From a virus (taxonomy: Duplodnaviria > Heunggongvirae > Uroviricota > Caudoviricetes): a stretch of DNA of 46,425 bases. Each line of letters starts with the position of its first letter. Within the stretch, counting starts at the first letter, position 1. This document shows positions 39,001 to 42,000 of this stretch, piece by piece. The position numbers are program-made. The stretch lies in IMG/VR virus record IMGVR_UViG_2511231131_000010; one strand, written 5' to 3'.

Positions 39001-42000
39001 AATTTTTTCTTGACAGCCTGTTTCCCAAAACATAATATCGCACCATCAATTATAACTTGATTTAATTCAATTTAAAATTGTTGGCGGATATATGAAGACA
39101 CTAAAAGCAACTCCAGAAACAACTAATTTTATCAACTGCGGCTGTGTTACGCTTAAGGGCTTAGAACTTGATTCCTTTGCATTAAATATTGCAAATTTGC
39201 TAAGTGCTGTACGCACATTCCATCTTCTGGATTGTGCTCGCTCAAAGGAACTGGGCATTGAGGTAATGGAATTTATCCATGAATATGCTCTATCTGCTGC
39301 TTCTCCTGCACAACAAAAACAATCCTTCCCTGAAAGCTGGCTGGTTAACCTTCGCACCCAACGCGAAGCCTGCGGCTTAACAACCGCCGAACTCGCCAGG
39401 CTGCTCGATCTCGATGAAGAAATTATCATCCAGTGGGAGAGCGGAGAGTATGAACCAACTATCAGTATGCTTATCCCACTGGCAAATATTCTTGGCTGCG
39501 ATCCGATGTGCCTGTTAACTGGTGAGGTTACTCCTCCGGAGCAACCAAAAAGTGAGGAGCAGCAACACCATGACGCATCTCAACAAGTTTGCCCCTTATC
39601 TCGCGAAGCTCTTCTGCGGAAGAACCAATACCAATGGTGACATAATCGCCGCTTCGCCCTTCAAGGTACATGCGAACATTTTTATCAATCATTGCGGAAA
39701 CAGTCTCAATATGAAAACACTTCTGAGACTCGCTATATAGCAGAACATATAAGTCAGCTGAGGAAGCCATGAAAAAGTTCGAAAACATAACTGTTCTCCA
39801 TGTTGATGACTTTGATTATACAAACCCGGAACTTCTCCCGGAGGTTGTAAAGGCAATGGATGTTGCCGATATAGTGATTAGAGAAAAGAGAATTGTCAAA
39901 AACAGGCTCGCATGCACTTCAGGAGCAATGACAGAAACAACCTCACAGCAAGATAATTACGAAGGCATTTGTCTGGAGCCTGATTCATTTGCGGTAAATG
40001 TTTATCATTTATTGCATGCAACACAGGTATTACATATGTCCAGTAATCACGAAACGAAAACACTCGGCAGCGAAATTCTGAGTTTTGCATGTGAGTATAC
40101 AAAAGCTGCTGCCGAAAAAGAATTAGCGCAATAACAACAAATATGCCCTGAACGTTTATTGCGGTTTTATCGCCGGGGATTGTTACAACCTTAATCCACA
40201 GGAGGCTTTATTGTGACTTTTATAAAGAATATGGCATCACACAAGACCGCCTGCCTTATTGCACAATACGGTGAAAATTACATGCATATTGCCTGCTTAT
40301 TTCTGCGTAAAGCATACGGGAGATAATAATGCATCAGAAAACAGCAGAACACGAACAAACCAGAATATTGCTGACCATCAAAAACGGGAAAGTAATATTC
40401 ATTCTCCATGTTCATGACGATGAACTTGTAGGAACTCTTTCAACATTCCTGTTTATTGCAGAAAAGGCAGGATATGACGTTATTGCACCAGCAGATGAAG
40501 ATGAAGATGAGGAATAAATATCATGCAATACGATGAATTCCAGGCTGAAGCAACAGCCAATGGTATACGAACTGGCAGTATGACGATTGATTATCACGAC
40601 GCCATACGTCGTCTGGATGCCGGAGAATTCGATACTCCTAATGTGCGAGGTTTACGTATCCTTCAGTGTCTGGCGCAAGCCGACGAAGCAGGATTACTGG
40701 GTAAACTTCCGGTTGAGATGAAGGTTGCTCAGTGGCGATGGTTGTATGTGACGACATTCATCAACGAAGAAGAAGACAAGAACGGCACAATTGATATCCT
40801 GAATGAACACGGAACAACTGAACACGCCGTGGTATATAACGGGATGTATGGGTTTATGACGATATATCCCGGCCCCATTCGATTTGCCTTACAACAGTAT
40901 ATTGAATGGAATTTAATTCAAAAATACGGCGAAGCTGAAGGAATGGGAAGAGCGCTGTTTCTTTATCAGAAAATGCTCACTACTTCCCCTGATAAAGGTT
41001 TCATTCTTTCAGATATGGGTCGAGAAGGGCTTGAAATCCTTCTGGATGAAATTATTAACGAAATGAATACTCATGGCATGCAATCCGAAACAGATATTAA
41101 GTAAAAGGGACCACATGACCGTTATCGAGTATATCCAGGAAAATCCAGATTGCAGTAGAGAAGATATATCCCTCGCACTTGGAAGAAGCGCAACTTCTAT
41201 CAGTAATGAATTATCACGGTTATTGTGGAATGGGTTAATAGTACGAACTGGAGAAAAAAACAAAATGATTCTGTACTGCGTAAACAATCTGCCGTTTGGA
41301 TACAGCAATCCCCTAAGTGTTATGTTCAACCAGTTACTTAAACAGGTAAGAAATGGCAACTGACTCACAACTAACCATAGAAACGGCCCTGAATGTCGGC
41401 CTGGCGCTCCTTGGTTATTTTTACATCGTGTTCTGCAGCGGACGGTGGCTGTCGCTGTTGTTCCTGAAAAAATGGAATAAACGCCGTAAGCAGGATGAAC
41501 GCCAGAAGGCAATGAATGCGTTTTCCGAAGCCTTCGGAATTGACGGCATGGAACCAGGGGATCCAGCTCGCGCAATCAGCAGAGGGGGTGTAGTAATCCT
41601 TGTATATCGGAGTGAAGAGAAAAATGACGATCACAAAACAACGAGTAGAAAAAATCATATATCGCCATGAAATGGGACTGAACAGCGATGTCACTGCCGA
41701 AGAGGTTTATGACCTGGCTGTACTGGCGCTGAATTTATCAAATATCGCAAACCTGAAGCGATACGAGCTTGATATGGATGGTTGCGACTCGTGCGGTCAG
41801 GATTGTGGCGCAGATATGACTGAAAATCCTGATGGTGATTATGTCCTGTTTGATGACGTGGTTAAGTTGTTTGAATTTGATACAACCACTCAAAAGTTAG
41901 AAATCCCGGCAAAGGAGGCTGCCAGTGAGCAAGATTGACTATCAGGCACTGCGCGAGGCGGCGGAACAGGCAACGCAAGATGAATGGGTAGCATATATTT

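What the first reader, a model, noticed from the sequence alone, without database searches (positions are those of the whole stretch)
39010..40134. Paralogous two-gene module at the first position of the pL-like operon, where lambda has N
Directly after the cI terminator sits a near-consensus promoter (TTGACA, 17 bp, TAATAT; 39010-39038) flanked by two TCAA-N7-TTGA inverted repeats. The first gene behind it (39092-39640) is not an Arg-rich N-like antiterminator. It is a fusion of an unknown ~60-aa domain to a C-terminal XRE-type HTH. Its N-terminal domain (LELDSFALNIANLLSAVRTFHLLDCARSKELGIEVMEFIHEYALSAAS) is about 40% identical (20 of 48 by hand alignment) to the C-terminus of the next gene, 39769-40134 (LEPDSFAVNVYHLLHATQVLHMSSNHETKTLGSEILSFACEYTKAAAE), which has a different N-terminal half. 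A shared interaction domain split across an HTH protein and a partner, in the immunity-proximal early position, suggests a regulatory switch, exclusion or anti-defence pair. I do not recognise it as a named family.
Basis: partly seen in the sequence, partly recalled or inferred. Interest (0 to 1): 0.7.

Follow-up and report, generated by a model that had tools for sequence, protein, structure and literature searches.

The report
Prophage early regulator plus hairpin-sharing partner
Right after the repressor gene of an E. coli prophage sit two uncharacterised early genes, a DNA-binding regulator and a smaller protein, that share a two-helix hairpin domain; they travel together in gut-bacterial prophages and probably form a small regulatory module, but their function is untested.

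Summary
Gene 1 (39092-39640, 182 aa) and gene 2 (39769-40134, 121 aa) share a ~47-residue segment: 43% identity, BLASTP E=9e-10, z=14 against shuffles. AlphaFold2 models it as a two-helix hairpin in both. They follow the cI terminator and a promoter flanked by ATCAA-N7-TTGAT repeats. The prophage is phiP27-like and has no N at this position.

- The hairpin-coding 5' part of gene 1 belongs to the swappable immunity cassette. Seven N-terminal domain types match seven cI types without exception in 138 loci. The HTH and gene 2 lie in a conserved module.
- Gene 2's hairpin variants reassort freely with those N-domain types, so this is not a co-evolving specific pair.
- Gene 2's two domains occur elsewhere fused directly to the same kind of HTH. 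A hairpin-only or beta+hairpin gene follows the regulator in at least 90% of loci, including Salmonella prophages.

Best reading (about 0.4): a modular XRE early regulator plus an HTH-less "headpiece" partner or decoy, working like SinR/SinI but not belonging to that family. Main rival: a generic self-association hairpin spread by domain shuffling, with no interaction. No named family or experimental work was found.

The parts
38250..38945 (+). cI-type repressor (HTH_3 + Peptidase_S24). It defines immunity type 'C1'.
   Evidence: Pfam Peptidase_S24 E=4e-17 and HTH_3 E=5e-8; phrog_4; annotated cI in phage PhiR49_2.
38957..38981 (+). Intrinsic-terminator-like hairpin plus T-run after cI.
   Evidence: 7-bp stem with 5 GC pairs, followed by TTTTTTTT.
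38998..39014 (.). Operator-like inverted repeat ATCAA-N7-TTGAc, overlapping the -35 hexamer.
   Evidence: 1 mismatch. Equivalent positions in six other immunity types carry different, type-specific inverted repeats.
39010..39038 (+). pL-like sigma-70 promoter, TTGACA-17-TAATAT.
   Evidence: 10 of 12 matches. A promoter-like site lies at the same place in all seven immunity types.
39045..39061 (.). Perfect operator-like inverted repeat ATCAA-N7-TTGAT, just downstream of the -10. A weaker third copy lies at 39066-39082.
   Evidence: 0 mismatches; the third copy has 2.
39092..39640 (+). Gene 1: 182-aa modular XRE regulator (phiP27 'L10' family, phrog_4836).
   Evidence: AlphaFold2 model m53d832c1c3a8.
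39158..39301 (+). Gene 1 aa 23-70: two-helix hairpin (type A N-domain). This is the segment paralogous to gene 2.
   Evidence: AF2 helices 23-45 and 49-70, pLDDT about 82. BLASTP E=9e-10. pN/pS 0.04 within type A.
39342..39361 (.). Right-hand boundary of the heterologous immunity cassette, at about codons 84-90 of gene 1, just before the HTH. The left boundary is at about 37848-37884, in the 3' end of cro.
   Evidence: blastn of the window against representatives of five other immunity types. Homology resumes at 39342-39361 in every case.
39332..39520 (+). Gene 1 aa 81-143: Cro/C1-type HTH domain, nearly invariant across immunity types.
   Evidence: Pfam HTH_3. 32 invariant columns in alignment A1. 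Foldseek hits to P22 c2 and 434 Cro.
39530..39637 (+). Gene 1 aa 147-182: disordered tail ending in a short helix (..SREALLRKNQYQW). Together with the following spacer (window 39506-39767) it takes the place of the second HTH seen in a 216-aa relative.
   Evidence: pN/pS 0.26.
39641..39768 (.). 128-nt spacer between gene 1 and gene 2. It is absent in the two-HTH forms, where the genes overlap (ATGA).
   Evidence: RNA folding is not better than shuffles, z=0.27. No Rfam hit.
39769..40134 (+). Gene 2: 121-aa protein (phiP27 'L08', phrog_5451).
   Evidence: AF2 model mf1b623419f6d.
39793..39918 (+). Gene 2 aa 9-50: small beta-alpha-beta domain.
   Evidence: AF2, pLDDT about 75-80. Conserved in homologues at about 40% identity. 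Fused directly to tandem HTHs in Salmonella proteins P0164, P0166 and P0170.
39973..40128 (+). Gene 2 aa 69-120: two-helix hairpin paralogous to the gene 1 hairpin.
   Evidence: AF2 helices 71-89 and 94-120, pLDDT about 87..

Best explanation

Gene 1 is a modular XRE-type DNA-binding regulator. It has a disordered leader, a two-helix hairpin that I infer to be its oligomerisation head, one Cro/C1-type HTH, and a short tail. The hairpin is encoded inside the swappable immunity cassette, together with cro, cI and the operators. The HTH and everything to its right belong to a module shared by phages of different immunity.

Gene 2 has no HTH. It consists of a small beta domain plus a hairpin of the same family, so it is effectively a set of "heads" without a DNA-binding body.

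Most likely mechanism: after derepression both proteins are made from the same transcript. Gene 2 then joins or competes in the oligomers of the HTH regulator, or binds its conserved part, and so tunes its DNA binding. This would be a SinI/SinR-like or microProtein-like decoy arrangement with low type-specificity.

Shown: anatomy, paralogy, purifying selection on the hairpin, conserved adjacency, domain fusions, and the position of the cassette boundary.

Inferred: oligomerisation, the physical interaction, the regulatory effect and the DNA target.
For: - Paralogy is significant, and both segments are modelled as two-helix hairpins.
- Gene 1 has a bona fide HTH_3 domain. Its closest solved structures are the P22 c2 and 434 Cro DNA-binding domains.
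- The gene 1 hairpin is strongly constrained, with pN/pS 0.04.
- A gene 2-family ORF follows gene 1 in at least 122 of 136 non-identical loci. In two-HTH forms it often overlaps by ATGA, which suggests translational coupling.
- An exhaustive profile search finds only 38 clusters. In them the two gene 2 domains are shuffled with the same kind of HTH: beta+2xHTH, hairpin+HTHs, hairpin+HTH+beta remnant+2xHTH, and hairpin alone.
- Salmonella prophages carry, after cI, [hairpin+2HTH][beta+2HTH][hairpin-only], or a fused version followed by [hairpin-only].
- The promoter and operator layout is kept, with type-specific repeats, in seven immunity types.
- A small helical protein that mimics a repressor's oligomerisation domain is an established mechanism: SinI/SinR, and AimX/AimC in Bacillus phages (bioRxiv 10.1101/2025.11.23.689978).
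Against: - There is no co-variation. Gene 2 hairpin variant 1 sits behind N-domain types A (35 loci), B (13), C (21), D (1) and E (6). Variant 2 sits behind A' (14), F (10), C (3), A (4) and E (4).
- Types C, D, F and G and the further types H, I and J seen among the protein hits are not detectably homologous to the gene 2 hairpin. Hairpin-to-hairpin pairing therefore cannot be both specific and essential.
- The one gene 2 variant with a type-E-like hairpin lies behind a type C regulator.
- Gene 2 is only moderately constrained: pN/pS 0.43 for the hairpin and 0.70 for the beta domain.
- No complex could be modelled and no DNA target was found.
- The AF2 models are of medium quality (mean pLDDT 67 and 70, pTM about 0.43) and come from 24-sequence alignments.
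Confidence: 0.4

Rival explanations
1. The two proteins have independent functions. The hairpin is a generic self-association module that has been copied between neighbouring genes by domain shuffling or illegitimate recombination. Gene 1 merely needs some dimerising head, and gene 2 homo-oligomerises and acts on something else. The paralogy records history, not an interaction.
For: - N-domain types and gene 2 hairpin variants reassort freely.
- At least four unrelated N-domain families serve the same invariant HTH.
- Perfect linkage of N-domain to cI is expected from hitch-hiking alone, because no homology exists between cassettes to allow recombination between cI and codon ~85.
Against: - Adjacency is highly conserved, with frequent start/stop overlap.
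- An HTH-less hairpin gene recurs behind hairpin-HTH genes even in divergent Salmonella prophages.
- Gene 2's beta domain is fused to the same HTH type elsewhere.
Confidence: 0.28
2. The gene 1 hairpin is an immunity-specific effector. It contacts the cognate cI or Cro, like an antirepressor or the TP901-1 MOR protein, so that once pL fires the switch is locked. Gene 2 then modulates or mimics this.
For: - Seven N-domain types map one-to-one onto seven repressor types in 138 loci with no exception.
- The cassette boundary falls at the same domain junction in five comparisons.
- The hairpin is under strong purifying selection within a type.
Against: - Linkage alone explains the one-to-one mapping.
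- N-domains show no sequence similarity to the cognate cI or Cro above non-cognate controls; Smith-Waterman scores are 17-34 throughout.
- The repressors differ in architecture: some have an S24 domain and others are 130-150 aa without one.
- Gene 2's hairpin does not follow the immunity type.
Confidence: 0.12
3. Gene 1 is a CII-like establishment regulator, as the PHROG label says. It would activate lysogeny or integration promoters that lie in the conserved DNA, and gene 2 would be an accessory factor, comparable to lambda CIII.
For: - phrog_4836 is labelled 'CII-like regulator'.
- No cII-type gene lies after cro; Roi/Rha-like genes are there instead.
- The invariant HTH implies a target in conserved DNA.
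Against: - There is no Pfam Phage_CII hit.
- The gene lies in the leftward operon downstream of cI, not after cro.
- No candidate target repeat was identified.
- The PHROG label is an annotation, not a test.
Confidence: 0.1
4. This is an accessory exclusion or anti-defence pair, a moron at the immunity-proximal hot spot comparable to rexAB or bstA.
For: - The position next to cI is a known hot spot for such genes (own knowledge).
- Gene 2 is weakly constrained and variable.
Against: - PADLOC gives only generic HTH hits for gene 1 and none for gene 2.
- The genes lie behind an operator-covered promoter, not a constitutive one.
- There is no enzymatic or membrane domain.
Confidence: 0.08

Closest known systems
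SinR / SinI of Bacillus subtilis (also SlrR/SlrA)
   Same: An XRE-type HTH regulator with a two-helix oligomerisation domain, next to a gene for a small HTH-less protein that is homologous to that domain.
   Different: - Domain order is reversed: here the hairpin is N-terminal to the HTH.
- No sequence relationship; no Pfam SinI or SinR-specific hit at E<=1.
- Here the small protein's hairpin does not co-vary with the regulator's hairpin.
- Gene 2 has an extra beta domain.
- The interaction is untested.
AimX-AimC antirepressor-repressor pairs of arbitrium Bacillus phages (bioRxiv 10.1101/2025.11.23.689978)
   Same: A phage-encoded small helical protein proposed to block oligomerisation of an HTH regulator of the lysis-lysogeny switch. 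The authors themselves compare it with SinI/SinR.
   Different: - AimX targets the main repressor and is controlled by AimR. Here the HTH protein is not the prophage repressor but the first product of the repressed operon.
- The hosts here are enterobacteria.
- No homology.
Cro/C1-type DNA-binding domains (P22 c2, 434 Cro/repressor, DicA)
   Same: The gene 1 HTH domain matches: Pfam HTH_3 E=3e-10; Foldseek TM 0.88-0.90 normalised to the target with about 30% identity to P22 c2; NCBIfam DicA E=1e-8, below its cut-off.
   Different: Those proteins carry the HTH at the N-terminus and act as immunity repressors or Cro. Gene 1 carries it after a hairpin, sits at the N position of pL, and coexists with a separate cI and cro.
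Lambda N (positional analogue only)
   Same: First gene behind pL/oL, on the same strand as cI.
   Different: Gene 1 has no Arg-rich motif (7 Arg in 182 aa) and no N-family hit. It is a DNA-binding protein, not an RNA-binding one.
PHROG families phrog_4836, phrog_4739, phrog_5451 and phrog_4587
   Same: Gene 1 matches phrog_4836 (E=4e-77) and, over the HTH and tail, phrog_4739. Gene 2 matches phrog_5451 (E=4e-83), and its hairpin matches the 66-aa phrog_4587.
   Different: These are automatic clusters without tested function. The shared hairpin does give weak cross-hits between the families (gene 1 to phrog_4587 and phrog_5451, gene 2 to phrog_4836). The 'CII-like' label is unverified.

Membership tests
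XRE / Cro-C1 HTH regulators (Pfam HTH_3, PF01381) | HTH_3 domain scoring above the Pfam gathering threshold. | tested here: met
   Gene 1 aa 87-138: 40.4 bits against a cut-off of 23, E=3e-10. Structural matches to P22 c2 and 434 Cro.
XRE / Cro-C1 HTH regulators | Sequence-specific DNA binding to a palindromic operator. | not testable with these tools
   No conserved candidate operator was found in the conserved module.
Lambda N antiterminators | N-terminal arginine-rich motif and N-family sequence similarity. | tested here: not met
   7 Arg in 182 residues. Pfam hits are HTH families only.
SinR/SinI-type repressor-antirepressor pair | HTH regulator with a helical-hairpin oligomerisation domain. 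| tested here: inconclusive
   The hairpin is predicted (helices 23-45 and 49-70, pLDDT about 82). Oligomerisation was not tested, and the domain order is reversed relative to SinR.
SinR/SinI-type repressor-antirepressor pair | Adjacent small protein homologous to the regulator's oligomerisation domain. | tested here: met
   BLASTP E=9e-10. hhalign 97.8%. Adjacency in at least 122 of 136 loci.
SinR/SinI-type repressor-antirepressor pair | Heteromer formation that blocks DNA binding. | not testable with these tools
   No multimer prediction was available. Lack of co-variation argues against a type-specific interface.
SinR/SinI-type repressor-antirepressor pair | Sequence membership in the SinI/SinR dimerisation family (own knowledge: Pfam has a SinI model). 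| tested here: not met
   No such hit for either protein at E<=1. No PDB sequence hit for gene 2.
Lambda CII family (suggested by the PHROG label) | Similarity to Phage_CII, and a position after cro in the pR operon. | tested here: not met
   No Pfam Phage_CII hit. The gene lies downstream of cI in the leftward operon.
Known anti-phage defence systems (PADLOC) | Match to a defence-system protein model beyond a generic HTH. | tested here: not met
   Gene 1 hits only the HTH portions of RmrA, HTH_VI and capH models. Gene 2 has no hit.
PHROG phrog_4836 / phrog_5451 | Full-length profile match. | tested here: met
   E=4.3e-77 over aa 1-153 for gene 1, and E=4.1e-83 over aa 1-121 for gene 2.

The most novel reading that the evidence does not exclude
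The hairpin head of the pL-first regulator is a third immunity-specific protein determinant, alongside cI and Cro. The HTH-less hairpin proteins are SinI-like microproteins that titrate such regulators. Because their hairpins reassort independently of immunity type, they could also act on the regulators of co-resident prophages (up to 3 copies per E. coli genome). That would be a protein-level cross-talk or interference layer among enterobacterial prophages, including Stx-converting ones.
Probability: 0.12. Interest if true: 0.8.

Novelty: new variant of a known kind. Interest (0 to 1): 0.5.

Why it matters
The phiP27-like prophages of E. coli, including several Stx1- and Stx2-converting phages, have no N at the first pL position, and nothing is known about what controls their early-left operon.

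This module is their first derepressed product. It matches DNA in 321 of 5,426 complete E. coli genomes, and relatives occur in Salmonella, Klebsiella, Enterobacter and Yokenella.

If the decoy model is right, it would extend the SinI/SinR and AimX/AimC principle to enterobacterial lambdoid prophages. It would also give a handle on induction timing in Shiga-toxin phages.

The sharp cassette boundary inside gene 1 is a clean natural domain-swap series. Seven or more heads sit on one invariant HTH, which makes the question directly testable.

Tried and rejected
- Specific co-evolving heterodimer pair: rejected. The same gene 2 hairpins sit behind unrelated N-domain types. The one type-E-like gene 2 variant sits behind a type C regulator.
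- N-domain as a mimic of the cognate cI or Cro: no similarity above non-cognate background.
- RNA element in the gene 1-gene 2 spacer: folding z=0.27 and no Rfam match.
- DNA target of the invariant HTH: no convincing conserved palindrome in 39600-41400.
- GTDB species representatives: only 5 weak generic HTH hits, none enterobacterial.
- IMG/VR scans with the Salmonella fusion proteins gave nothing useful.
- Literature searches by phage name, gene names and protein accessions returned no work on these genes.
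Full report
**Where the window comes from.** The region 38900-40200 is 100% identical to the chromosome of E. coli O55:H7 RM12579. There the prophage ends with an integrase next to mlrA. Window 38200-40600 is 99.5% identical to the induced phage PhiR49_2 from ECOR13. 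The two genes correspond to L10 and L08 of the Stx2e phage phiP27, both annotated "unknown".

The layout, left to right, is:
- a cro-like gene at 37832-38122 on the minus strand (YdaS/Cro-type HTH);
- cI at 38250-38945 (HTH_3 + Peptidase_S24);
- a terminator, then a promoter;
- gene 1, gene 2 and small accessory genes;
- xis and int.

All the genes from cI rightwards are on the strand of cI. This is the arrangement of lambda cI-pL-N (own knowledge).

**Checking the observation.** Every element is present.
- Terminator at 38957-38973, followed by a T-run.
- TTGACA-17-TAATAT at 39010-39038, 10 of 12 matches. Promoter-like matches are not enriched in the region (6 found, 6.9 expected), so this match alone is weak evidence.
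- ATCAA-N7-TTGAT repeats at 38998-39014 and 39045-39061, which bracket the promoter. Only four sites in the whole window match this pattern with at most 1 mismatch, and three lie in the cI region.
- Six other immunity types have a promoter-like site at the equivalent place, each with its own different inverted repeats. That is what operators of type-specific repressors should look like.
- Gene 1 has a clear HTH_3 domain at aa 87-138 and is not Arg-rich.
- The inter-protein similarity is 20/47 identical, BLASTP E=9e-10. It is 14 standard deviations above shuffles, with 0 of 20,000 shuffles reaching the score. It is confirmed by profile-profile comparison (97.8%, E=8.7e-13).

**Anatomy of the two proteins.** The AlphaFold2 models are of medium overall quality (mean pLDDT 67 and 70), but the shared segment is confident in both.

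| Protein | Segment | Model |
|---|---|---|
| Gene 1 | aa 1-24 | disordered |
| Gene 1 | aa 23-45 and 49-70 | two-helix hairpin, pLDDT about 82 |
| Gene 1 | aa 81-143 | five-helix HTH domain |
| Gene 1 | aa 147-167 | disordered |
| Gene 1 | aa 171-179 | short helix |
| Gene 2 | aa 9-50 | small beta-alpha-beta domain |
| Gene 2 | aa 49-71 | disordered linker |
| Gene 2 | aa 71-89 and 94-120 | two-helix hairpin, pLDDT about 87 |

 Structure searches return only Cro/C1-type DNA-binding domains for gene 1 (P22 c2, 434 Cro, C.AhdI, SinR N-domain). For gene 2 they return only generic helical hairpins. Gene 2 has no Pfam, NCBIfam, PADLOC or PDB-sequence match.

**Gene 1 is a chimera of two evolutionary modules.** Its homologues share a nearly invariant HTH, with 32 invariant columns. 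They carry very different N-terminal domains of about 50-90 residues, and either one HTH plus a tail or two tandem HTHs.

In 138 non-identical loci, seven N-domain types map one-to-one onto seven upstream repressor types. The counts are 64, 26, 20, 13, 11, 1 and 1, with no exception.

blastn of the window against representatives of five other types shows that homology stops in the 3' end of cro (about 37848-37884). It resumes at 39342-39361, about codons 84-90 of gene 1, in every comparison. The hairpin head is therefore part of the immunity cassette. The HTH, gene 2 and the rest of the operon form a shared module. Within type A the hairpin is under strong purifying selection: pN/pS is 0.04, against 0.23 for the HTH.

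**How general the paralogy is.** The gene 2 hairpin profile is homologous to N-domain types A (97.8%), E (97.2%) and B (93.9%). Types C, D and J form a second family. Types F, G, H and I are orphans. So the paralogous pair exists in phages of three immunity types, not in all.

The two hairpins do not co-vary:
- Gene 2 hairpin variant 1 follows regulators of type A (35), B (13), C (21), D (1) and E (6).
- Variant 2 follows A' (14), F (10), C (3), A (4) and E (4).
- A rare gene 2 variant with a type-E-like hairpin lies behind a type C regulator.
- Type E regulators are followed by a 66-aa hairpin-only protein of variant 2.

This rules out a specific, co-evolving hairpin-hairpin interface as an essential feature.

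**Evidence that the two genes nevertheless work together.**
- A gene 2-family ORF follows gene 1 in at least 122 of 136 loci. Most of the 14 apparent misses look like the L095 case, where the called 66-aa gene overlaps the gene 1 stop and my filter dropped it.
- In the two-HTH forms the genes overlap by ATGA.
- An exhaustive profile search of 1.84 billion representative proteins finds only 38 clusters. In these, the two gene 2 domains recombine with the same kind of HTH: beta+2xHTH (P0164, P0166, P0170), hairpin+HTHs (P0177, P0182), hairpin+HTH+beta remnant+2xHTH (P0179), beta plus other helical tails, and hairpin alone at 60-72 aa.
- The named members come from Salmonella, Klebsiella, Enterobacter and Yokenella.
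- In Salmonella prophages the same immunity-proximal position carries [hairpin+2HTH, 256 aa][beta+2HTH, 195 aa][hairpin-only, 71 aa]. Another version is a 333-aa fusion followed by the same hairpin-only gene.

The E. coli beta+hairpin protein therefore looks like a deletion-fusion of the last two genes. The conserved theme is one or more HTH regulators with interchangeable heads, followed by an HTH-less hairpin protein.

**Interpretation.** The best-supported reading (confidence about 0.4) is an early regulatory module. Gene 1 is an oligomeric XRE regulator made first when cI is lost. Gene 2 is a headpiece-only partner or decoy that modulates it.

It would work like SinR/SinI, or like the recently described AimC/AimX pairs of Bacillus phages. 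It is not a member of those families: there is no sequence relationship, the domain order is reversed, and co-variation is lacking.

The main rival (about 0.28) is that the hairpin is simply a portable self-association module copied between neighbouring genes, with no interaction. In that case the perfect linkage of the gene 1 head to cI would be hitch-hiking inside a recombination-cold cassette.

Three less likely readings remain:
- The head contacts the cognate cI or Cro. No mimicry signal was found.
- A CII-like role, which rests on the PHROG label only.
- An exclusion or anti-defence pair, for which there is no supporting hit.

**Novelty.** No paper in the searchable library mentions these genes. 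No curated family covers the hairpin or the beta domain. The mechanism class (XRE regulator plus mimic of its oligomerisation domain) is known, so I rate this a new variant of a known kind, with moderate interest. The most distinctive and testable result is the domain-precise immunity-cassette boundary inside gene 1.

Noticed in passing
window 39769-40134 versus L003 10029-10235 (NC_017656.1): RefSeq annotates gene 2 in O55:H7 RM12579 as only 68 aa, starting at the internal ATG 39928. The upstream 53 codons encode a beta domain that is conserved at about 40% identity in Klebsiella and other homologues and is fused to HTHs in Salmonella. The 121-aa reading is therefore the real gene, and the RefSeq call is probably truncated.
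   Followed up: yes
window 37688-37712: A perfect 25-bp palindrome, CAATTTCCACAG-T-CTGTGGAAATTG, lies inside the Roi/Rha-like gene just downstream of cro. Its central 23-bp core (AATTTCCACAG-N-CTGTGGAAATT) is present without mismatch in 42 of the 189 fetched loci, across several immunity types. It could be a protein-binding site (a candidate target for a conserved regulator) or an RNA hairpin. Its function is unknown.
   Followed up: partly
window 39506-39767 versus L004 4364-4646: The 3' end of gene 1 comes in alternative cassettes. One is a 36-aa tail (..SREALLRKNQYQW) plus a 128-nt spacer, as in the window. The other is a second XRE HTH that abuts gene 2. One protein (P0045) has both. What the tail does is unknown.
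   Followed up: partly
window 39528-39788, minus strand: An 86-aa antisense ORF overlaps the gene 1 tail and the spacer. It is not homologous in position to phiP27 L09 and has no support, so it is probably spurious. One database protein (P0003, 215 aa) continues in the +2 reading frame of this stretch, like a frameshifted form of gene 1.
   Followed up: partly
window 37128-37835 and 36171-37019, minus strand: After cro, the pR-side operon has two Rha/Roi-like regulator genes and no cII-type gene at the usual place, so it is unclear how lysogeny is established in this phage group.
   Followed up: no
window 40329-40517 and 40523-41104: The next conserved genes are a 62-aa acidic protein and a 193-aa protein. 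The 62-aa protein matches phrog_340 and gives weak hits to the C-terminal parts of anti-repressor PHROGs. The 193-aa protein matches phrog_1515 and has no Pfam family. Both co-travel with gene 2 in almost all loci and could be part of the same module.
   Followed up: no
L099/L100 2983-3375 and L103 1058-1510: Two immunity types pair the gene 1 family with short repressors (130 and 150 aa) that lack a Peptidase_S24 domain. Those prophages presumably need an antirepressor, not RecA-mediated cleavage, for induction.
   Followed up: no
window 38250 versus 38256: The longest cI ORF starts at TTG 38250, but an ATG follows two codons later. Both PhiR49_2 and RefSeq annotate a 690-nt (229-aa) cI.
   Followed up: no
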